From assembly GCF_000737335.2 (NCBI RefSeq), contig NZ_JMCC02000029.1, forward strand, positions 67,447 through 99,446: DNA of 32,000 nt, read 5' to 3'. Position 1 is the first letter of the stretch, and every line of letters begins with the position of its first letter. Shown one piece after another: positions 5,980 to 17,584 of the stretch. Below the pieces are notes generated by a model. The model worked only from the letters and a program-made list of their open reading frames with translations, was not told where the DNA came from and made no database searches. Position numbers and translations under genes: made by a program. The DNA is from Enhygromyxa salina (lineage in GTDB: Bacteria; Myxococcota_A; Polyangia; Nannocystales; Nannocystaceae).

Positions 5980-6654
5980 CTAGGCCACGGCAAAGCGCTC
6001 GAGCATCTCTAGCCACGCCCCGAAGTGGGCACACTTCACGCGAATTCGATCCAGCGAGATCTGCTGCGCTGCCAACGGCCCGTGGAGCGTCTTTTGATAC
6101 CTGGGGAACAAGCCCTCGATTCGCTTGGATGGCGCCGTGGCCGGACCCTCGTTGATGTCTTCAGGAGTGGCGAAGCTGGCCTGCAAGGCGGCAAAGCGCT
6201 CAGCGCTGTCGCGGTTCGCGTTGACGACGCGGGGCAAGGTGGTGCTGTCAGAGAACAACCACGCCTCAAACTCGTGCAATGCCAGAAACGCAGAGAAGCG
6301 TTGATCGCTGAAGTGCTGCGTGAGGTTGTCTTCGACGTGTTTCACCCGTTGTGCCGGTGAGCCGTTTGGCGGACGCGTCGAGATGCCGGGGCAGTCTCGC
6401 GGGAGCCCGTAGTAGTCGATTAGTGTCGTCACGAGTGCATCACCAGCGCCTTGAAGAATCCGCTTGACGTCGTTCTCGAGCTTGCCAAACGAAGTGACGC
6501 CTCCCTTGAAATTGGGTCCGGCCTTCACTTTCTTCGTCACCAGCAGGGTCGCGGAGAGATACAGGTTCTTGGGCCAAAAATGGGGCGCGAGCACCTCTTT
6601 GACGAAGCGCTCTTCGGTTTGGCCTTCGACCAACAAGATTGCCCGCTTGGTCAC
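5980..6654 (-). CDS. DUF4276-like protein with TOPRIM-like N-terminal motif; putative nuclease partner of the upstream ATPase
   Basis: 224 aa with a GTG start at 6654. The N-terminus (M)TKRAILLVEGQTEERFVKEVL carries the hydrophobic-VEGxTE acidic motif seen in TOPRIM/OLD-family domains, and by my recollection at the start of DUF4276 proteins. Start and stop overlap as GTGA with the ATPase gene. G+C is visibly lower than in the flanks. Confidence 0.65.
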   Translation of the reverse strand: MTKRAILLVEGQTEERFVKEVLAPHFWPKNLYLSATLLVTKKVKAGPNFKGGVTSFGKLENDVKRILQGAGDALVTTLIDYYGLPRDCPGISTRPPNGSPAQRVKHVEDNLTQHFSDQRFSAFLALHEFEAWLFSDSTTLPRVVNANRDSAERFAALQASFATPEDINEGPATAPSKRIEGLFPRYQKTLHGPLAAQQISLDRIRVKCAHFGAWLEMLERFAVA

Positions 6655-7742
6655 GGACGCGCCCCAATGATGTTCTTTTCCCAGAGCTCCCCGAGCGAGT
6701 ACTCGTCAGACCACGCGGACATGTCCTCGGAGGAGAGCTGTTTGAACACGCTCTGACCATCGTCGCGCTCGACCGTCCACACGTCCTCAGGAGTAAATTG
6801 GTTGATGAGAGTGACGGACTGCGTGGCTGCAATTATTTGAATCTGCGACGCCGCAGCGGACATCATGCTCGCGAGGTCCGTGATCGCGGCTGGGTGCAGG
6901 CCGAGCTCGGGTTCGTCGAGCAGGATCAAGCCAGGCGGGGCGGGCTGGAGCAGGAGGGTAGCGAGGCAGATGAAGCGCAGGCTACCGTCGGACAGCGCAG
7001 AGGCCTTGAAGAAGGCGTCACGGCCCCGCTCCTTCCATTCGAGCTGGATTCGGGACGGGTTGAGGCGCGAGGGGGCGAGGTCGAAGCGATCGAAGAACGG
7101 CGCGACCTGTCGGACCGCACCTTCGATCGTGGCGAAGTTGTCGGGGTGCCTCTGCGCCAGAAAATACAGGTAGGCTGGGAGGTTGTCAGCGTTCGCGCGG
7201 AGGAATCGATTGTCATCGATCTCGCACAGCTGCTTCATTGGCGCTGTCGCCCCGGTGTCGTGAAAGTGATAGATCCGGTAGCCCTCGAGGTCCTGAAGCG
7301 CCTGACGAGCACACAGGTGTGAGTGGGCCCGAAGCTGGGACTCGTCCGAATGCAGGCCGATGTCGAGTTCGTAGGGTTCACGATACTTTTCGCGTTCGTG
7401 ATAGAACGCCTGCTCGCGCGCGATGATCAGTCGGTTGTCTTGCGTTGGCACCAAGTCCACGGAGTAGCCGTTGGCGCGATTTCCTTCAGCGAAGTCTAGA
7501 TTGATGTGCAGCGTGTCGGTGTGCTTGCGTCCAAAGTGCAGCAGCGCGTCGGGTCCACCTTTGGTCGCGGTATAGCCAGCCAAATTCTGCGTGACGATCT
7601 CGCGCAGGAGCCGGAAGACCCCGACAAAGTTCGACTTGCCGACGCCGTTGGCCCCGATCAGGATGTTCAACGGTGCGAGCGCCAGGGTCTGATCGCGGAT
7701 CGACTTGAAGCCCTGGATCGTCAATTTCTCGAGTTTGCGCAC
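6651..7742 (-). CDS. ABC/SMC-type AAA ATPase (AAA_15/AAA_21-like)
   Basis: 363 aa with a GTG start at 7742. (M)RKLEKLTIQGFKSIRDQTLALAPLNILIGANGVGKSN contains Walker A. The signature-like motif is LSDGSLRFICLATLLLQ. Walker B / D-loop is LILLDEPELGLHPAAI. IIAATQS lies at the H-loop position. Confidence 0.85.
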   Translation of the reverse strand: MRKLEKLTIQGFKSIRDQTLALAPLNILIGANGVGKSNFVGVFRLLREIVTQNLAGYTATKGGPDALLHFGRKHTDTLHINLDFAEGNRANGYSVDLVPTQDNRLIIAREQAFYHEREKYREPYELDIGLHSDESQLRAHSHLCARQALQDLEGYRIYHFHDTGATAPMKQLCEIDDNRFLRANADNLPAYLYFLAQRHPDNFATIEGAVRQVAPFFDRFDLAPSRLNPSRIQLEWKERGRDAFFKASALSDGSLRFICLATLLLQPAPPGLILLDEPELGLHPAAITDLASMMSAAASQIQIIAATQSVTLINQFTPEDVWTVERDDGQSVFKQLSSEDMSAWSDEYSLGELWEKNIIGARP

Positions 7743-7786: not shown

Positions 7787-9829
<2,043 letters not shown>

Positions 9830-9938
9830 CGAGGCACACTACCAGGACCATCCAGACCGCAGCGAGCGGGCTCCCGCTGGGGTCTGGCTGGTGTCGGCGA
9901 GCTGAGAAACCATCTGTCGGCTCCTATACAATGGTGTC

Positions 9939-11081
9939 GTGGCGACCCAACACCTCGTGCTCGTTCCTGGCTTCTTCGGGTTCGTGAACTTTGGTCCCCT
10001 GATCTACTTCGCCCACGTCCGCGAGCTGCTCGAGAGCGAGTTTCGGGCGCGGGGCTGCGACGTTCGGGTGCATCGGGTCCGCACGCATCCGGTCGCGTCG
10101 CTGCGCCAGCGCGCTCGAGATCTGCGCGACGTGATCGCCGAGCTGCCCGACGACGGCCCGGTCCACGTCGTTGGCCACAGCACCGGTGGGCTCGACGCGC
10201 GCTTGGTCACCAGCCCCGGGGTGGATCTCGGCCCCGGCGAGGTCGAGGTCCACGCGGCCAGGGTTCGCAGCGTGATCTCGGTCTGCACCCCGCACCGCGG
10301 CTCGCCGCTCGCGGGTCACCTCGCCGGGATGATCGGCGAGCCGCTGCTGCGCTCGGTCTCGATCTTGACGGTGCTGTTTCTGCGGCACGGCAAGGTCCCG
10401 GCTCACTTGGCGCTGCGCCTGGCGCGGGTGCTGGTGGGCGAGGGGCTGCTGCCGAACACGCCGGTGCACGTGGTGCTGCAGACCCTCGAGCGCGAGGCCG
10501 CCGACGCCCTCGAACAAGACTGCAAGACCGAGGACGAGCGGCTCTCGGTCGCGGACTTCATGCGCGAGCTTCGAACCGAGCCGCACCTGATCCCGCAGCT
10601 GATGCCGCAGGCGCTCGACCTGTTCAACGCGGGCGTCTCCGAGCGACCCGGGGTCCGCTATGGATCCGTTGTCGCCCGGTGCCCGGCGCCCAACTTGCGC
10701 TCGCAGCTGCGGGTGAGCGGGGGCCCCTACGAGCACGCGACCCATGCCTTCTTGCAGTGGCTGTACCGGCGCGCGACCCCGCTCTCGCCGGACTTTCACG
10801 TGCCCTTTGACGAGCAACAGCGCGGAGCCATGCGCGCGGCTTGGGGGGCGTTGCCCACCGCGGCCGACAACGACGGGATGGTGCCAACGGCTTCGCAGGT
10901 CCACGGGCGGATCATTCACGTGGCGACGGCCGATCACCTCGACGTGATCGGGCATCTACACGATCCCAACCACGAGCCCGCGCACCACGACTGGATCTCC
11001 TCGGGCTCGGGGTTTGGCCACAAGAGCTTCGAGGCGCTGTGGACGGACGTCGCGGGGGCGATCCTCGAGGCGTCTCCATAG
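9939..11081 (+). CDS. Alpha/beta-hydrolase, lipase/esterase-like
   Basis: 380 aa with a GTG start at 9939. HLVLVPGFFGF comes first, then the nucleophile elbow VHVVGHSTGGLDARL (GHSxG). Further motifs: SVISVCTPHRGSPLA and a late DGMVP...HLDVIGH (candidate Asp/His). Confidence 0.75.
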   Translation: MATQHLVLVPGFFGFVNFGPLIYFAHVRELLESEFRARGCDVRVHRVRTHPVASLRQRARDLRDVIAELPDDGPVHVVGHSTGGLDARLVTSPGVDLGPGEVEVHAARVRSVISVCTPHRGSPLAGHLAGMIGEPLLRSVSILTVLFLRHGKVPAHLALRLARVLVGEGLLPNTPVHVVLQTLEREAADALEQDCKTEDERLSVADFMRELRTEPHLIPQLMPQALDLFNAGVSERPGVRYGSVVARCPAPNLRSQLRVSGGPYEHATHAFLQWLYRRATPLSPDFHVPFDEQQRGAMRAAWGALPTAADNDGMVPTASQVHGRIIHVATADHLDVIGHLHDPNHEPAHHDWISSGSGFGHKSFEALWTDVAGAILEASP

Positions 11082-11230
11082 CGCGGGTTCGCGGCCGCGC
11101 GCGCGCGCGGGACGGGAGGAGATCTCCCGGCCGTCGTCAGCTCACCCGAGCCGACAACCTTGGCTGATCCGGAGCCGGATCGAAAAAAAATCTCTCGGAG
11201 GGGGTCACAGCAGGATCAACTCGACGCGAA

Positions 11231-11599
11231 ATGCCGACAACAGAAAAAGTGGCAGTTTCATTTGGGGCACACGTCAAGCGTCTCCGCGAAGTCCGACGGC
11301 TCACTCAAGAAGAGTTGGCGGAACGGAGCGGGCTCGCAGCCGACACAATCAGGCGCCTGGAGCATCAGGACTTCTCGCCCTCCCTCCGAACCTTGCGAAA
11401 GGTGTGTAGGGGCCTGGGTTTGTCGGTTGCGGCCATGTTTACCTCCTTCGAGCTCGAGGGCGTCCCGGAGGAGATCGCCCGGATCAACGGCCTGTTGGTC
11501 GGGCGCTCTCCCGCCGAGCTCAAATTGGTCGAGCGGGTACTCGCGACATTGTTCGAAGAACTCGACCGCGGTCCCGGGTCGGGGGCCGAATCGAGTTAG
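11231..11599 (+). CDS. XRE-family (Cro/C1-type) helix-turn-helix transcriptional regulator
   Basis: 122 aa. FGAHVKRLREVRRLTQEELAERSGLAADTIRRLEHQDFSPSLRTLRKVCRGLGLSVAAMF is a canonical HTH_3 pattern. G+C is lower than in the neighbours. The TAG stop at 11597-11599 overlaps the first unit of the palindrome array. Confidence 0.85.
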   Translation: MPTTEKVAVSFGAHVKRLREVRRLTQEELAERSGLAADTIRRLEHQDFSPSLRTLRKVCRGLGLSVAAMFTSFELEGVPEEIARINGLLVGRSPAELKLVERVLATLFEELDRGPGSGAESS

Positions 11600-11790
11600 C
11601 GCATCGGATCGCTATCAGTGCGCAGGGATCGCGATCCCTGCGCAGGGATCGCGATCCCTGCGCACGGGATCGCGATCCCTGCGCACGGGATCGCGATCCC
11701 TGCGCATCGGATCGCGATCCTTGCGCATCGGATCGCGATCCTTGCGCATCGGATCGCGATCCCTGCGCACTGGATCGCGATCAGTGCGCA
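11598..11790. repeat. Array of nine contiguous 20-21-bp units, each with a TGCGCA box and a GGATCGCGATCC palindrome; candidate operator, iteron or centromere-like array
   Basis: TGCGCA boxes (the first degenerate, AGCGCA) start at 11598, 11619, 11639, 11659, 11680, 11701, 11722, 11743, 11764 and 11785. Between them lie (G)GGATCGCGATCC(C) cores. The first core is degenerate (GGATCGCTATC) and the last is truncated at its 3' end (GGATCGCGATCAG). There are no spacers between units. I count 17 GATC sites in 193 bp. Confidence 0.9.
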
Positions 11791-11914
11791 CCGCTTGGCG
11801 GCGTTTGGCGAAGTGTCGCGAACGTGAGCGAGCTGTCGTCAGGCTGTGCGCATATGACTTGACGTCGGCGCGGCGAGCGTTGTTGGTTGGCGCGCGAGTC
11901 GGTAGTCTGCGTCC

Positions 11915-12661
11915 ATGAAGCGGGCTGCTCAGGTGGTCTTTGCAACGGTCTGGTGGCTGACCTTCGCGCTCGTGTGTGCGGTGATGTTTGTCGGCGCGAC
12001 CGTGTGCTTCATGGTGACCGTGCCGTTCGACAAGCGCCGCGTGATCCAGCATCTGTACTCGTGCTTCTGGGCGCAGATCATGTTCTACCTCAACCCGTTT
12101 TGGCGGCTGCGGATCACGGGCCGCAGCAAGCTGCCGTGGCGTGGCAAGGCCGTGCTGGTCTCGAACCACGAGTCGCTCGGGGACATCTTGGTGCTGTTCG
12201 GGCTGTATCGTCCTTACAAGTGGGTCAGCAAGGCGGCGGTGTTTCGGTCGCCGTTCTTGGGTTGGAACATGCACTACAACGGCTACGTCCCGCTGCGCCG
12301 CGGCGACAAGGCCAGCATCGTGGAAATGAGCAAGCGCTGTCACGCGTGGCTCGACATGGACATGCCGATCCTGATGTTTCCAGAAGGCACCCGCTCCCCC
12401 GACGCGGAGGTCAAGGCGTTCAAGGACGGGGCGTTTCGTCTGGCGGTAGAGGCCAATTGTCCGCTGTACCCGATCGTGCTGGTGGGCACCTCCGACACGC
12501 TGCCCAAGCACGGCTTGATGGTGAAGATCGCCGCCAAGTGTCATGTGCAGGTGATGGATCCGGTGGATCCGCAACAATTCAAGGGCGATGTCGCGGCGTT
12601 CCGCGACCACGTGCGCGAGCTGATCATCGCCGAGAAGGCGCGGATCTTGGCTGCACGCTGA
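11915..12661 (+). CDS. Lysophospholipid / 1-acyl-sn-glycerol-3-phosphate acyltransferase family protein (PlsC-like)
   Basis: 248 aa with an N-terminal TM segment. HX4D motif: VSNHESLGDILV. Also present: FPEGTRS and a downstream PLYPIVLVG block. Confidence 0.85.
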   Translation: MKRAAQVVFATVWWLTFALVCAVMFVGATVCFMVTVPFDKRRVIQHLYSCFWAQIMFYLNPFWRLRITGRSKLPWRGKAVLVSNHESLGDILVLFGLYRPYKWVSKAAVFRSPFLGWNMHYNGYVPLRRGDKASIVEMSKRCHAWLDMDMPILMFPEGTRSPDAEVKAFKDGAFRLAVEANCPLYPIVLVGTSDTLPKHGLMVKIAAKCHVQVMDPVDPQQFKGDVAAFRDHVRELIIAEKARILAAR

Positions 12662-14811: not shown

Positions 14812-16161
14812 ATGACCGTACGCGAGACCGCCGCCTACCCGCCTGGATCAGCGCCGCGCGCCAGCGCGACGCCACAGACCGATGCTGCCACGCTGTTTGC
14901 CCCTCAGACCCAGCAGACGCTGGTCGCAGACGCGTCGCAAGAGACGCTGGTCGCCGATCGCCAGACCGACTCCATGCAGCAGACGCTGATCGCCGGCGAC
15001 AGCGGTGGCAAGTCGGGGCCCGGCCAGACGCTCTCGGGGGCGACCCGGGGCCACGCGACCGTGCTGCCAGACGTGCGCAGCGAGGGCGACCGGCTGATCA
15101 TCGTGCCGCGGGATCAGACCCGCTACGAAGGGGACAAGCTGCTCGGGCGGGGCGGCATGGGTGAGGTCAAGCTCGCCCACGATCACGACATTGGCCGCAA
15201 GGTCGCCGTCAAGCGCCTGCTCGATGACACCGACCCGCACGCGGTCGCGCGCTTCATCGACGAGGTCCGCACGGTCGGCAGCCTCGAGCACCCCAACATC
15301 GTGCCGATCCACGACGTTGGCGTCGACGAGGACGGGGCTTTGTTCTTTGTCATGAAGTACGTCGAGGGCGAGACCCTCAGCTCGATCGTTCAAAAGCTGG
15401 CCGCGGGCGACGCTGGCTACCACAAGCGCTACAGCTTCGAAGCCCGGCTGGATCTGTTCGCGGGCCTGCTGCGGGCCCTGCAGTACGCACACAGTCAGGG
15501 GCTCGTGCATCGGGACGTCAAGCCAGAGAACATCATGGTGGGGCGCTACGGTGAGGTGGTGCTGATGGACTGGGGCATCGCGCATCTGATGCGCACCGAA
15601 GATCGGGCTGGCAACCTGGCCGCGCTGGATCGGGCCTCGACTGAGACAGTGGACGGCGCCGTGGTCGGCACGCCGCAGTACATGTCACCCGAGCAGGCGA
15701 CCGGGCAGGTGGCCGATCTCGACGGGCGCAGCGATCTCTACAGCGCGTTCGTGGTGCTCTACGAGTTGCTGACGTTGGTGCCCTACGTCGAGGCCAAGCA
15801 GACGGCGATGCAGACCGTGCTCGCCGCGGAGGAGCGGTCGTTGGCGTCGGGGGTCGATCACAACTTCGAGAACCCCCATCAGGCCGCCGTGCCGGTCGAG
15901 CTGAGGTACTTCTTGCGGCAGGGGCTCGCGCACGACAAGAACCAGCGCTACGCGGACGCGCTCGAGGCGATCGAGACCCTCGAGCTCGTGCGGGCCGGCG
16001 ACTTTGCCGTGACCTGCCCGGTCACGTTCATGAAGTCCAACAGCACCAAGATGGGTCGGTTCATGGATCGGCACCCAGCCGGATCCATGATGTTCGCCAC
16101 CATGTCGGCGCTGGCGTTCTTGGGTGGCGTCGCTGGCTGGGTCATGTGGGCGATCGGTTGA
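14812..16161 (+). CDS. Hanks-type serine/threonine protein kinase with C-terminal membrane anchor
   Basis: Motifs: GRGGMGEVKLAHD...KVAVKRL (P-loop and Lys), HRDVKPENIMV, MDWGIA, GTPQYMSPEQ. The C-terminus MMFATMSALAFLGGVAGWVMWAIG is a TM helix. I prefer ATG 14812 (MTVRETAAY...); the track ORF starts at 14713. Confidence 0.85.
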   Translation: MTVRETAAYPPGSAPRASATPQTDAATLFAPQTQQTLVADASQETLVADRQTDSMQQTLIAGDSGGKSGPGQTLSGATRGHATVLPDVRSEGDRLIIVPRDQTRYEGDKLLGRGGMGEVKLAHDHDIGRKVAVKRLLDDTDPHAVARFIDEVRTVGSLEHPNIVPIHDVGVDEDGALFFVMKYVEGETLSSIVQKLAAGDAGYHKRYSFEARLDLFAGLLRALQYAHSQGLVHRDVKPENIMVGRYGEVVLMDWGIAHLMRTEDRAGNLAALDRASTETVDGAVVGTPQYMSPEQATGQVADLDGRSDLYSAFVVLYELLTLVPYVEAKQTAMQTVLAAEERSLASGVDHNFENPHQAAVPVELRYFLRQGLAHDKNQRYADALEAIETLELVRAGDFAVTCPVTFMKSNSTKMGRFMDRHPAGSMMFATMSALAFLGGVAGWVMWAIG

Positions 16162-17584
16162 TCGCGGCCGCCACGGCGGCGTCCCAGTCGATGTCGGTGC
16201 GGACGCCCACGTAGGAAGGGAAGCGTGGGACGCCCGCGTCGGTGAGCTCTTGATAGCGGACCGTGATGATCTCGCCGCTGCTTGGCGGGTTGTCGCGCTC
16301 GGCGTCGGACAGCCCCGTGCCAACCTTGAACCGGGTGCCGTTGGGGAGCTCGAGCAGCAGGGCCCCGAGCCGGCCTTTGTGGCGGCCGGTGCCTGGCTGG
16401 TGGCCAATGATCCGGGCCTCGGTGTCGAAGAAGGTCTTGACCTTGAGCAGGGTGTCGGACCGGCCTGCGATGTAGTTTGAGCCGGGCTTGCGCAACATCA
16501 GGCCTTCGCCGCCCAGCGCCTCGACCCGCTTCAGCTCGGCCTGCATGTCGTCGACGCCGGTGCACACGCGATGCTCGAGGACGTTGGCGTGGGCCCACGG
16601 CTGCTTGCGGAAGTGATCCTCGAGCTGGGCGATGCGCCCCTCGAAGCCCGCGTTGAGACCGGGTCCGTCGAAGATCACGAACGAGAGCCCGCGCCAGGCC
16701 GCGCCCGCGTCGGCCCGCCGGGCGATCGAGACGGCCTGCGCAAACTTGCCGCGGCCGGCGAACAGCTCACCGTCGAGCGGGAACGAGGGCAACCCTTCAA
16801 TGAACCACTCCGGGGCCAAGTAGGCGTTGCCAAGCCGCGACACGAAGCCCTTGCCGTCCCAGTAGGCCCGCACGCCGTCGAGCTTCTCGCTCATCCACCA
16901 CCCGGTTGGATCTTGCTGCTCCCAGCGGTGCGCGAGCAGCAACGCGGGCGCGTCCGATGGGGTGACGGCGCGCTGCGGGAGCGTGCCGCCCTGGGCTTGC
17001 AGCCGGTCTTGCTCGGCAGCCTCACCCCGCAGGTTTCGAAGGTGCTTGCAGGTCCGGCGATCGATCGCCAGCGATTGGTTGCGCCACGCCGGGCAGGTGC
17101 ACGAGTACACGCCGCCGACGTTGCGCAGCGTGTAGACGCTCGAGCCCGAGCCTTTGACGGTCGTCTCGGCGCCGTCGGGTAGCGGATCCGGGCTTGCGGA
17201 GCCCTGCGGCGCGGCGGAGCTCTGCGGCGCCGCAGAACTCTGCGGCGCGGCGGAGCCCTGCGGCGCGGCAGAGCTCTGCGGCGCGGCAGCGGGCGGAGCT
17301 GCGGCAGCGGGCGGGGCTGCGGCAGAGACTGGAGCCGCCGCGAGCTGCGCCGCTGCGCCGACGCTAGCCGTGTCGGCGGTGCCCTGCTCGACGTAGCCTT
17401 TGCCGGTCTTCGCCAGGATCTGCTTGTCCGCGTCCGCTTCGGCCTTGGCGGGCGTCGGGTAGCTCTTGGTCTTCGACTGGCCGTCGGTCCCGATCCGCCC
17501 CCACTGCGTGGTGACCTCGTTGCCTTGCTGATCGATCTGCCAGAACTTGTTCGATTTTTGATCGCGGTATTCGAAGCGGCGCAT
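16142..17584 (-). CDS. WGR domain - SWIM zinc finger - ATP-dependent DNA ligase (LigE-like core) fusion protein
   Basis: 480 aa. WGR: MRRFEYRDQKSNKFWQIDQQGNEVTTQWGRIGTDGQSKTKSY. Low-complexity linker: (AAPQ[SG]S)5. SWIM CxC..CxH: YSCTCPAWRNQSLAIDRRTCKHL. Ligase motifs: I SEKLDGVRAYWDG, III LDGELF, IIIa FVIFD, IV EGLMLRK, V LLKVK, and an OB-fold tail ...VPRFPSYVGVRTD. Confidence 0.85.
   Translation of the reverse strand: MRRFEYRDQKSNKFWQIDQQGNEVTTQWGRIGTDGQSKTKSYPTPAKAEADADKQILAKTGKGYVEQGTADTASVGAAAQLAAAPVSAAAPPAAAAPPAAAPQSSAAPQGSAAPQSSAAPQSSAAPQGSASPDPLPDGAETTVKGSGSSVYTLRNVGGVYSCTCPAWRNQSLAIDRRTCKHLRNLRGEAAEQDRLQAQGGTLPQRAVTPSDAPALLLAHRWEQQDPTGWWMSEKLDGVRAYWDGKGFVSRLGNAYLAPEWFIEGLPSFPLDGELFAGRGKFAQAVSIARRADAGAAWRGLSFVIFDGPGLNAGFEGRIAQLEDHFRKQPWAHANVLEHRVCTGVDDMQAELKRVEALGGEGLMLRKPGSNYIAGRSDTLLKVKTFFDTEARIIGHQPGTGRHKGRLGALLLELPNGTRFKVGTGLSDAERDNPPSSGEIITVRYQELTDAGVPRFPSYVGVRTDIDWDAAVAAAINRSPT
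17196..17285. repeat. Five tandem 18-bp units encoding the (AAPQ[S/G]S) linker of the ligase fusion
   Basis: Units of gc[g/a]ga[g/a]c[c/t]ctgcggcgc[g/c] start at 17196, 17214, 17232, 17250 and 17268. Confidence 0.85.

What the first reader, a model, noticed from the sequence alone, without database searches (positions are those of the whole stretch)
11598..11790. Array of nine head-to-tail nested palindromes starting in the stop codon of an XRE regulator
Ten TGCGCA boxes at 20-21-bp spacing, about two helical turns, alternate with 12-14-bp perfect palindromes, (G)GGATCGCGATCC(C). Nothing separates the units. All sites therefore lie on one face of the helix. That geometry is typical of cooperative operator arrays, plasmid partition centromeres (parC/parH-like iterons) and replication-origin iterons. 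The array contains 17 GATC sites in 193 bp. Each core also contains CGATCG and TCGCGA, which makes it an extreme target or sink for methyltransferases and restriction enzymes with those specificities. It lies directly 3' of a lower-GC XRE gene and 125 bp upstream of the PlsC-like gene. The motif occurs nowhere else in the window. It could also extrude cruciforms.
Basis: seen in the sequence. Interest (0 to 1): 0.65.

Follow-up and report, generated by a model that had tools for sequence, protein, structure and literature searches.

The report
Phased palindromic repeat array after XRE gene
Between a small XRE-type regulator gene and a lipid acyltransferase gene of a marine myxobacterium (Enhygromyxa) lie nine head-to-tail copies of a 20-21-bp palindromic motif whose core is conserved in four related genomes; it looks like a young array of protein-binding sites, not a plasmid centromere, a replication origin or a dispersed repeat.

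Summary
The array is real: window 11599-11790, 9 units, period 20-21 bp, 17 GATC. Two details in the finding are wrong. There are 9 TGCGCA boxes plus one AGCGCA, and CGATCG does not occur in the array.

The window comes from an Enhygromyxa genome (Nannocystaceae). The same XRE-array-plsC arrangement occurs in three other genomes or metagenomes whose XRE is 91-94% identical: 6, 6 and 4 units. The shared module is G-GATCGCGATC-[A/C]-N-TGCGC-[A/G]. Its 15 core positions never differ between the four lineages, while 5 of 6 non-core positions do (p = 3e-4). Only 48% of 4-fold codon sites are invariant across the same four genomes. Periods are 19-21 bp or 31 bp, that is two or three helical turns.

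More distant XRE-plsC orthologs (77-85% identity) have gaps of 32-85 bp and no array, so the array is a recent gain and the regulator does not need it. The full unit occurs nowhere else in 1.77 Mb of related DNA. No ParA, Rep, DnaA box, AT-rich stretch or GC-skew switch is present.

Best reading: a phased array of sites for a sequence-specific DNA-binding protein, most plausibly the adjacent XRE dimer, acting on XRE/plsC expression. Binding is untested. Rivals are a neutral minisatellite and an RNA hairpin element.

The parts
11249..11599 (+). XRE-family HTH gene. It is 116 aa from GTG 11249. The longest ORF starts at ATG 11231 and gives 122 aa. Stop codon TAG at 11597-11599.
   Evidence: Pfam HTH_3 2.5e-10 and HTH_31. 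Gene callers give orthologs a start at the Val/Met equivalent to residue 7, and the GTG is conserved in all orthologs. AF2 model pLDDT 86.5: a five-helix HTH plus two C-terminal helices. The nearest solved structures are the R-M controller proteins C.BclI, C.AhdI and C.Esp1396I, then ClgR and DdrO.
11599..11790 (+). Tandem array of 9 units. In the frame G-GATCGCGATC-NN-TGCGC-R the units are 11606-11624 (degenerate, GCTATC), 11626-11644, 11646-11664, 11667-11685, 11688-11706, 11709-11727, 11730-11748, 11751-11769 and 11772-11790.
   Evidence: TRF; counts and unit list; excess over shuffles; palindromes. Syntenic arrays occur in L081, L205 and L204.
11564..11573 (+). Decayed unit-like palindrome GACCGCGGTC inside the 3' end of the XRE coding sequence (codons D-R-G), 43 bp before the first array core.
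   Evidence: Read from the sequence. The homologous codons are GGATCGCGATCC in L204 (PWM score 18.5), GATCGCGACT in SWB007 and GATCGGGACC in L205.
11791..11914 (+). Post-array spacer found only in array-bearing loci. Conserved blocks: CGTGAGCGAGCTGTC (11823-11837), GACTTGACG (11856-11864) and a -10-like TAGTCT (11903-11908) 6 nt before the plsC ATG.
   Evidence: Four-way alignment A3. The segment is absent from SWB005. The motif TGnTAnnCT lies 6-8 nt before the ATG in 7 of 8 orthologs with or without the array; this window has CGG instead of TGG. A promoter role is inferred: the sigma-70 consensus scan found nothing.
11915..12661 (+). PlsC-like acyltransferase gene, the conserved downstream partner of the XRE gene.
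   Evidence: Pfam Acyltransferase 1.9e-25. XRE-plsC adjacency is seen in L081, L082, L204, L205, L206-208, L209, L213 and the P0005 contig.
11213..11218 (+). GGATCA hexamer upstream of the XRE gene. It is invariant as GGATC[A/G] in all 9 orthologs, 47-48 nt before the Phe-11 codon. It is a candidate operator or transcription-start element.
   Evidence: Upstream alignment and position table. Its function is inferred only.

Best explanation
The array is a recently gained, helically phased series of binding sites for a sequence-specific DNA-binding protein. It lies in the spacer between an XRE regulator gene and its conserved partner gene plsC, in one sub-clade of Enhygromyxa.

Each site is the composite G-GATCGCGATC-[A/C]-N-TGCGC: a 10-12-bp palindrome plus an asymmetric GCGC box, always in the same orientation. 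The most likely binder is the dimer of the adjacent XRE protein, which is C-protein-like and carries a two-helix C-terminal extension.

Sites spaced by two or three helical turns would let neighbouring dimers touch along one face of the DNA and form a cooperative nucleoprotein block. That block could do three things:
- stop read-through from the XRE gene into plsC, acting as a roadblock;
- sequester XRE protein close to its own gene, acting as a titration buffer;
- modulate the plsC promoter about 115 bp downstream.

Shown: the anatomy, the conservation pattern, the phasing, the synteny, and the gain of the array in one sub-clade. Inferred: that a protein binds, that it is the XRE, and what the regulatory outcome is.
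For: 1. The module recurs at the same locus in four genomes: window 9 units, L081/SWB007 6, L205 6, L204 4.
2. The 15 core positions are invariant in all four lineage consensuses, while 5 of 6 non-core positions differ (Fisher p = 3e-4). Only 48% of 4-fold sites in XRE and plsC are invariant across the same four genomes, so 15 of 15 has P about 2e-5 under neutrality.
3. Spacing varies but stays in helical phase: 19-21 bp in three genomes; 31 bp with unique 13-nt spacers in L204 and once in SWB007. This separates conservation of the site from simple unit copying.
4. Orientation is constant relative to XRE and plsC.
5. The neighbour is an HTH_3 protein whose nearest solved relatives are R-M controller proteins. 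[quoted passage not shown] C.Kpn2I acts as an elongation roadblock (PMC6237814, title and abstract).
6. XRE-plsC is a conserved gene pair in at least 10 loci.
7. A GATC-centred hexamer, GGATC[A/G], is the only invariant element upstream of all 9 XRE orthologs.
Against: - No binding data exist.
- Orthologs at 77-85% identity have a virtually identical HTH but no array. The XRE therefore has a job that does not involve the array.
- No full unit is found upstream of any XRE ortholog or anywhere else in 1.77 Mb. A native operator resembling the unit has not been seen; only the half-site-like GGATCR has.
- The 12-bp palindrome puts half-site centres about 7 bp apart, which is closer than in classical Cro/cI-type operators.
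- The HTH is nearly invariant across 5-12 paralogs per genome that sit in unrelated contexts, so its specificity is unclear.
- Short lineage-specific tandem repeats also occur 3' of other family members and are not rare in Nannocystaceae intergenic DNA. Expansion as such needs no function.
- The four genomes are one small clade.
- Copy numbers in short-read assemblies may be collapsed.
Confidence: 0.5

Rival explanations
1. The array is a neutral or self-propagating minisatellite. A palindromic sequence at the 3' end of the XRE gene expanded by slippage or unequal recombination and is homogenised by gene conversion. It has no function.
For: - Copy number differs between genomes (4-9) and units are more alike within a genome than between genomes.
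- The array is absent from SWB005, L206-209 and L213.
- A unit-like sequence lies inside the XRE coding 3' end (LDRD codons) and could be the seed.
- L213 has a lone GATCAACGCGCA at the stop codon.
- Other family members also carry lineage-specific short tandem repeats in their 3' flanks.
Against: - The core is invariant in four lineages with 23-47% 4-fold-site divergence, while spacers vary (p = 3e-4 and 2e-5).
- In L204 the sites are kept although they are separated by unique 13-nt spacers. Slippage of a whole unit cannot by itself explain that.
- Helical phasing is preserved across different periods.
Confidence: 0.22
2. The array is an RNA-level element. Transcribed as the XRE 3' UTR or a plsC leader, it folds into a very long hairpin that terminates or insulates transcription, or is cut by RNase III, uncoupling XRE from plsC.
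For: - The 211-nt region folds to -167.4 kcal/mol, z = -15.9.
- It lies between two same-strand genes that are only 32-85 bp apart, and so probably co-transcribed, in array-less relatives.
Against: - Sequence, not pairing, is what is conserved. No compensatory changes are seen in the array cores.
- In SWB007, L205 and L204 the flanks that make the window's units perfect 12-14-bp palindromes are not complementary.
- The TGCGC box is kept on one side only in L204.
- There is no U-tract after the array, and the only terminator-like match in 10900-12100 lies inside plsC, not at the array.
- No Rfam family reaches threshold. The only matches are sub-threshold hits to generic hairpin models on both strands.
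Confidence: 0.15
3. The array is a methylation or restriction target cluster. With 17 GATC, 8 TCGCGA and 9 TGCGCA sites, it would act as a methylation-dependent switch or a sink for a methyltransferase or nuclease.
For: - Site density is very high.
- The XRE resembles R-M controller proteins.
Against: - No methyltransferase or nuclease gene is adjacent.
- GATC is about 4 times over-represented across the whole window (385 sites), so it is not under restriction avoidance.
- CGATCG is absent from the array.
- The TGCGC box and the exact 10-mer are conserved as a composite, not as separate short sites.
Confidence: 0.05
4. The array is a plasmid-type centromere or an iteron origin: sopC-, parC- or incA-like repeats next to the gene of their binding protein.
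For: - The binding-protein-gene-then-array layout resembles sopB-sopC, which has 12 x 43 bp repeats each carrying a 16-bp inverted repeat (PMC3177203).
- The 19-22-bp in-phase period resembles iterons (from my own knowledge, not checked here).
Against: - The context is chromosomal and syntenic on a 200-kb contig.
- The neighbours are a hydrolase and an acyltransferase, not a ParA/ParM/TubZ or Rep gene.
- There is no DnaA box in 32 kb, GC is 61-66% with no AT-rich stretch, and there is no skew switch.
- XRE relatives on plasmids are below 35% identity.
- The array is absent in sister genomes.
Confidence: 0.03

Closest known systems
R-M controller (C) protein operators (C-boxes), e.g. C.Esp1396I, C.AhdI, C.BclI
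   Same: - The neighbouring protein's HTH is closest in sequence and fold to these proteins.
- In the C.BclI C-box, 12-bp inverted repeats suggest homodimer or tetramer binding (PMC2094064). For C.Esp1396I a second dimer binds adjacently to the first (PMC2504287).
- One C protein, C.Kpn2I, acts as a transcription elongation roadblock (PMC6237814).
   Different: - C-boxes have two sites overlapping the promoter of the C gene. Here there are 4-9 sites, 3' of the gene.
- There are no R-M genes.
- The motif is different (GATCGCGATC plus TGCGC, against GACT/AGTC-type blocks).
- The protein has an extra two-helix C-terminal extension.
F plasmid sopC centromere and related ParB/SopB site arrays
   Same: A tandem array of palindromic sites lies immediately downstream of the gene for a DNA-binding protein. 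sopC has 12 x 43 bp repeats, each with a 16-bp inverted repeat (PMC3177203).
   Different: - The locus is chromosomal.
- There is no ParA partner and no ParB-type protein.
- The unit is 19-21 bp with no intervening sequence.
- The array is dispensable in sister genomes.
Iteron arrays flanking rep genes (P1 incA, F incC; from my own knowledge, not checked here)
   Same: Repeats of 19-22 bp in helical phase lie downstream of the gene of a DNA-binding protein. They are thought to titrate or handcuff it.
   Different: - Iterons are asymmetric direct repeats bound by winged-helix Rep monomers on plasmids.
- Here the core is palindromic, the protein is an XRE HTH, and there are no origin features.
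REP/BIME elements and MIRU-type intergenic minisatellites
   Same: Palindromic or tandem units sit just after a stop codon between same-strand genes. Copy number varies between strains.
   Different: - REPs are dispersed in many copies per genome. This unit is confined to one locus in all DNA sampled.
- MIRUs are 46-100 bp and keep reading frames. These units are 19-21 bp and mix 20- and 21-bp periods.

Membership tests
Plasmid partition centromere (sopC/parC/parS array) | Adjacent partition NTPase gene (ParA, ParM or TubZ) | tested here: not met
   The flanking genes are an alpha/beta hydrolase and an acyltransferase (Pfam). The AAA_21 ATPase 4 kb away belongs to a HEC-01 candidate defence pair.
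Plasmid partition centromere (sopC/parC/parS array) | Located on a plasmid or other independently segregating replicon | tested here: not met
   The locus is syntenic and chromosomal on a 200-kb E. salina SWB007 contig. There are no close XRE relatives in 72,556 plasmids.
Plasmid partition centromere (sopC/parC/parS array) | Repeated sites bound by the adjacent centromere-binding protein | not testable with these tools
   Needs EMSA, footprinting or ChIP.
Iteron-type replication origin or incompatibility array | In-phase repeats of about 17-22 bp | tested here: met
   Periods are 19-21 bp, or 31 bp in L204.
Iteron-type replication origin or incompatibility array | Adjacent Rep initiator, AT-rich unwinding element, DnaA boxes | tested here: not met
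   The neighbour is an XRE HTH protein. GC is 61-66% throughout. There is no DnaA box with up to 1 mismatch in 32 kb. There is no GC-skew switch.
REP/BIME-like dispersed palindromic element | Tens to hundreds of dispersed copies per genome | tested here: not met
   A two-unit pattern occurs once among the 185,579 species-representative genomes, at the syntenic SWB007 locus. It occurs 0 times in the viral and metagenome collections. The full unit is found only at this locus in 1.77 Mb of fetched DNA. A single-unit scan of a whole genome was not possible.
CRISPR array | Repeats of 21-48 bp separated by unique spacers of similar length; cas genes nearby | tested here: not met
   There are no spacers in the window. 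L204 has only 13-nt spacers. No cas-like domains are found in the neighbouring genes.
XRE/C-protein-type operator | Palindromic site of about 12 bp; neighbouring sites positioned for dimer-dimer contact | tested here: met
   The palindrome is GGATCGCGATC[C/A]. Site-to-site distance is 19-21 or 31 bp. For comparison, the C.BclI C-box has 12-bp inverted repeats (PMC2094064).
XRE/C-protein-type operator | Sites overlap the promoter of the regulated gene or genes | tested here: inconclusive
   The array lies 3' of the XRE gene and 113-310 bp upstream of the -10-like element of plsC. No sigma-70 consensus promoter is found in 10900-12100. Transcription starts are unknown.
XRE/C-protein-type operator | Bound by the cognate HTH protein | not testable with these tools
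   No binding assay is possible. There is indirect contrary evidence: array-less orthologs keep a virtually identical HTH.
Known RNA family (Rfam) | Match at gathering score | tested here: not met
   There are 0 matches at gathering score in the window. The only matches are sub-threshold hits to generic hairpin models on both strands.

The most novel reading that the evidence does not exclude
The array is a natural 'decoy/nucleation' array. Four to nine phased sites placed right behind the regulator's own gene would assemble a cooperative XRE filament. That filament would buffer the free regulator concentration and insulate plsC from XRE transcription. This would be a chromosomal, XRE-based counterpart of plasmid sopC/incA arrays, caught soon after its birth from a unit-like sequence at the 3' end of the XRE coding region.
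Probability: 0.12. Interest if true: 0.6.

Novelty: new member of a known kind. Interest (0 to 1): 0.4.

Why it matters
If a protein does bind, this locus is a compact natural example of how a multi-site, helically phased operator array arises. Sister genomes capture three states:
- the ancestral tight XRE-plsC pair;
- a possible proto-unit at the stop codon;
- arrays of 4, 6 and 9 sites with two different phasings.

That makes the cooperative binding, titration and roadblock ideas directly testable with one small protein and short synthetic DNAs. It would also give a first operator for a regulator family that is present in 5-12 copies per Nannocystaceae genome. If nothing binds, the array is a well-documented case of a palindromic minisatellite whose core is kept by something other than protein recognition.

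Tried and rejected
- **Exact look-up of the window's XRE protein.** It is not on record, and the window's genome is not among the species representatives.
- **First ortholog search with the single protein.** It returned mostly unrelated HTH genes. The only near relative, L001 (48% identity), has no array.
- **Plasmid centromere or iteron origin.** Rejected for lack of ParA/Rep, DnaA boxes, AT-rich DNA and a skew switch, and because there are no close plasmid relatives.
- **REP-like dispersed element.** Rejected.
- **Coding repeat.** Rejected. The mixed 20/21-bp periods break every frame, and the ORFs crossing the array are spurious antisense or overlap ORFs.
- **Known RNA family.** None found.
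- **Sigma-70 promoter or intrinsic terminator at the array.** No promoter-like site in 10900-12100, and the only terminator-like match lies inside plsC.
- **Search for a unit-like autoregulatory operator upstream of XRE orthologs.** None found; only the invariant GGATCR hexamer.
- **Idea that 'XRE plus downstream tandem array' is a general property of the paralog family.** Several paralogs do have short 3' tandem repeats. My rough estimate of the excess over the background density of tandem repeats in these loci is at most about 2-fold, and those repeats are not conserved between orthologs. I therefore did not use this as evidence.
- **Literature search for the motif string.** It returned only unrelated primers and oligonucleotides.
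- **E. salina DSM 15201 ortholog (P0003).** Its DNA could not be retrieved.

Full report
**The observation**

The sequence at 11599-11790 is a tandem array: period 21, 9.2 copies, 91% matches, TRF score 265. Direct counting gives:
- nine TGCGCA boxes at spacings 20,20,21,21,21,21,21,21;
- a tenth, variant box AGCGCA that overlaps the TAG stop codon (11597-11599) of the XRE ORF;
- 17 GATC;
- 8 TCGCGA;
- 7 GGATCGCGATCC, of which 4 extend to GGGATCGCGATCCC;
- no CGATCG, so that part of the finding is wrong.

The two end units are degenerate (…GCTATCA…, …GCGATCA…). All eight GATCGCGATC 10-mers in the 32-kb window lie in the array. The composite pattern GATCGCGATCNNTGCGC with up to 2 mismatches has 12 matches, 11 of them in the array, against 0.78 expected from shuffles. 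The longest perfect palindrome is 48 bp. The array ends 124 bp before the ATG of a PlsC-like acyltransferase gene.

**Context**

The upstream ORF is an HTH_3/HTH_31 (XRE) protein. It most likely starts at GTG 11249 (116 aa), because that codon is conserved and is where gene callers start its orthologs.

Downstream on the same strand lie the acyltransferase (11915-12661), an MscS-like channel and a Ser/Thr kinase. Upstream lies an alpha/beta hydrolase.

The acyltransferase is 90% identical to that of Enhygromyxa salina SWB007 and 83% to that of SWB005. The order hydrolase-XRE-plsC-mscS-kinase is the same on a 200-kb SWB007 contig. The window is therefore chromosomal DNA of an Enhygromyxa (Nannocystaceae, Myxococcota) that is not itself in the collections.

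**Related loci**

The XRE-plsC gene pair recurs in at least ten loci. Four of them carry the array:

| Locus | XRE identity to window | Units | Spacings (bp) |
|---|---|---|---|
| Window | - | 9 | 20-21 |
| SWB007 (L081) | 91% | 6 | 31,21,21,21,21 |
| JGI metagenome contig (L205) | 93% | 6 | 21,19,21,21,21 |
| Logan contig (L204) | 94% | 4 | 31,31,31, with unique 13-nt spacers |

All four also share a conserved segment of about 125 bp between the array and plsC.

More distant orthologs have the pair but no array:

| Locus | XRE identity | XRE-plsC gap |
|---|---|---|
| SWB005 | 85% | 51 bp |
| L213 | 83% | 62 bp |
| P0005 contig | 82% | 34 bp |
| L206-208 | 77% | 85 bp |
| L209 | 77% | 32 bp |

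The array plus its 125-bp companion is thus most simply a gain in one sub-clade. The regulator clearly works without it.

Two things hint at how the array began. L213 has a single GATCAACGCGCA at its stop codon. In L204 the last codons of the XRE gene (L-D-R-D-P) read GGATCGCGATCC. These suggest that the array grew out of a unit-like sequence at the 3' end of the gene. This is inference.

**What is conserved**

Aligning all 25 units gives G-GATCGCGATC-[A/C]-N-TGCGC-[A/G]. The 10-mer is invariant apart from one T in the window's first unit, and the GCGC of the second box is invariant in all 25 units. The T before GCGC is replaced once, in L204.

In the window the inner units changed the flanks to GG…CC, which creates the perfect 12-14-bp 'nested' palindromes. 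The other three genomes have …GATCA, so the extended palindrome is a peculiarity of this genome.

In L204 the TGCGC box lies only on the 3' side of each palindrome. The unit is therefore asymmetric, and it is always oriented the same way relative to the genes.

Between the four lineage consensuses, 0 of 15 core positions differ and 5 of 6 non-core positions differ (Fisher p = 3e-4). Pairwise 4-fold-site differences in XRE and plsC are 23-47%. Only 48% of such sites are invariant in all four genomes, so fifteen invariant positions have P about 2e-5 under neutrality.

The periods of 19-21 and 31 bp are close to two and three turns of B-DNA, so the sites stay on one face of the helix even where the architecture differs. 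This pattern has three parts: sequence kept, spacer free, phase kept. It is what repeated protein-binding sites show, and it is the main argument against a purely neutral minisatellite.

**Not dispersed, not a plasmid or origin element, not a known RNA**

A two-unit pattern occurs once among the 185,579 species-representative genomes, at the syntenic SWB007 locus. It does not occur in the viral or metagenome collections. The full unit is found only at this locus in 1.77 Mb of fetched, mostly Nannocystaceae DNA. The best other PWM hits are the in-gene copy in L204 and one weak site upstream of a paralog.

There is no ParA or Rep gene among the immediate neighbours, no DnaA box, no AT-rich tract, no GC-skew switch, and no close plasmid relative of the XRE.

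Rfam gives nothing at gathering score. Below it there are only generic long-hairpin hits on both strands.

**The candidate binder**

The XRE model is confident (pLDDT 86.5): a five-helix HTH followed by two C-terminal helices. Its closest solved relatives by sequence and by fold are the restriction-modification controller proteins C.BclI, C.AhdI and C.Esp1396I, then ClgR and DdrO. Three published points make these relevant:
- 12-bp inverted repeats in the C.BclI C-box suggest that it binds as a homodimer or tetramer (PMC2094064).
- For C.Esp1396I, a second dimer binds adjacently at higher concentration (PMC2504287).
- C.Kpn2I acts as an elongation roadblock (PMC6237814).

A dimer per unit, with contacts between dimers two or three turns apart, is therefore mechanistically reasonable.

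One further lead: the only invariant element upstream of all nine XRE orthologs is GGATC[A/G], 47-48 nt before the Phe-11 codon (window 11213-11218). It resembles the outer half of the unit palindrome.

There are four points against the XRE as the binder:
- Array-less orthologs keep a virtually identical recognition helix.
- No full unit is found near any XRE promoter.
- The HTH is almost invariant across 5-12 paralogs per genome in unrelated contexts.
- The half-site centres are only about 7 bp apart.

**Mechanism proposed**

In the ancestral state XRE and plsC are 32-85 bp apart and probably co-transcribed. plsC keeps a conserved TGnTAnnCT element 6-8 nt before its ATG in 7 of 8 orthologs, which may be an extended -10 of a leaderless mRNA. 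This is inferred: the window has CGG rather than TGG, and the consensus promoter scan is negative.

In the sub-clade, about 270-320 bp were added, namely the phased site array and a conserved 125-bp segment. I propose that a sequence-specific protein, most likely the XRE dimer, fills the array cooperatively. The resulting block would limit read-through into plsC, hold XRE protein near its gene, and/or modulate the plsC promoter about 115 bp away.

I put about 0.5 on 'phased protein-binding array with a regulatory role'. Within that, roughly two in three that the binder is the adjacent XRE.

**Rivals**

- **Neutral or self-driven minisatellite (0.22).** It is supported by the variable copy number, the within-genome homogenisation, the absence from sister genomes, and the fact that short lineage-specific tandem repeats also follow other genes of this family. 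The conservation statistics and the spaced L204 architecture count against it.
- **RNA hairpin element (0.15).** The region would fold to -167 kcal/mol (z = -15.9). But sequence rather than pairing is conserved, and there is no U-tract or known family.
- **Methylation or restriction cluster (0.05) and centromere or iterons (0.03).** Both are poorly supported.

**Novelty and interest**

No described family fits. The nearest analogues are C-protein operators, sopC-type arrays (12 x 43 bp, PMC3177203) and iteron arrays. Each fails at least one defining feature here.

It is best filed as a new member of the general kind 'tandem array of regulator sites next to the regulator gene'. It is lineage-restricted and evolutionarily young. 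It is a tidy experimental system rather than a surprise, and I score its interest at 0.4.

Noticed in passing
window 5983-7742 (- strand): A two-gene pair: an AAA_21 ATPase (363 aa) overlapping a DUF4276 protein (224 aa). It matches the PADLOC candidate defence system HEC-01 (HEC-01A 4.7e-142, HEC-01B 3.5e-77). It lies about 4 kb upstream of the array and is unrelated to it.
   Followed up: partly
L113-L203: The XRE belongs to a Nannocystaceae-specific family with many copies per genome: at least 5 in E. salina SWB005, 6 in SWB007 and about 12 in Plesiocystis pacifica SIR-1. The HTH is almost invariant (DTIRRLEHxxFSPSLxTLRK) although the genomic contexts differ. Some copies are followed by a ComM/Mg-chelatase-like gene or by a second HTH gene.
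   Followed up: partly
L118, L164, L165, L168, L163, L172, L120, L127: 100-250 bp after the XRE paralog stop: A second ortholog group (55-59% identity to the window's XRE) shares a conserved non-coding element containing two copies of ACAT[TC]TGCC[GT]GTC about 24 bp apart. It might be an operator pair or a promoter.
   Followed up: no
L128 4522-4578; L130/L174 4381-4453; L165 4492-4540; L120 about 2568-2600: Lineage-specific short tandem repeats occur 3' of other family members: 6 x 10 bp TGATCAnCGG, 4.6 x 16 bp, 3.3 x 15 bp GCGGGGATCGGCACA, and 3 x 9 bp GATCGGCCT. Most contain GATC. They are not conserved between orthologs. My rough estimate of the excess over background is at most about 2-fold.
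   Followed up: partly
window 11213-11218, and the same position in L081, L082, L204, L205, L208, L209, L211, L114: GGATC[A/G] is the only invariant element in the otherwise unalignable region upstream of all nine XRE orthologs. In several it is preceded by a TAnAAC -10-like hexamer.
   Followed up: partly
window 11166-11181: A window-specific 16-bp palindrome, GATCCGGAGCCGGATC, is followed by an A8 run upstream of the XRE gene. It is not conserved in SWB007, L204 or L205.
   Followed up: no
window 11564-11573: The in-gene, unit-like 10-mer reads GACCGCGGTC. Compared with GATCGCGATC it carries two symmetric transitions, so it is still a perfect palindrome. It is the only instance of a 'compensated' change seen in any unit.
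   Followed up: no
window 25115-27607 (- strand); also L209 612-2183: A protein with Major Vault Protein shoulder and Vault_3 repeat domains, which is unusual in bacteria. A similar gene lies near the XRE ortholog in L209.
   Followed up: no
window 16145-17584 (- strand), including the 18-bp tandem repeat at 17196-17325: A WGR-domain plus ATP-dependent DNA ligase protein. Its ORF contains an 18-bp (6-codon) tandem repeat of about 5-7 copies.
   Followed up: no
window 7787-9829 (- strand): A 680-aa secreted-looking protein with DUF4215 cysteine-rich repeats and RCC1 repeats. It accounts for the 96-, 168- and 192-bp tandem repeats that TRF reports at 7804-9636.
   Followed up: no
L081 4481-6170 versus window 9829-9939: SWB007 carries about 1.7 kb of extra DNA between the RCC1-repeat gene and the hydrolase gene. 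The window does not have it.
   Followed up: no
window 11900-11917 and the orthologous positions: TGnTAnnCT lies 6-8 nt before the plsC ATG and is conserved in array-bearing and array-less orthologs, which suggests an extended -10 and a leaderless plsC mRNA. The window itself has CGG in place of TGG.
   Followed up: partly
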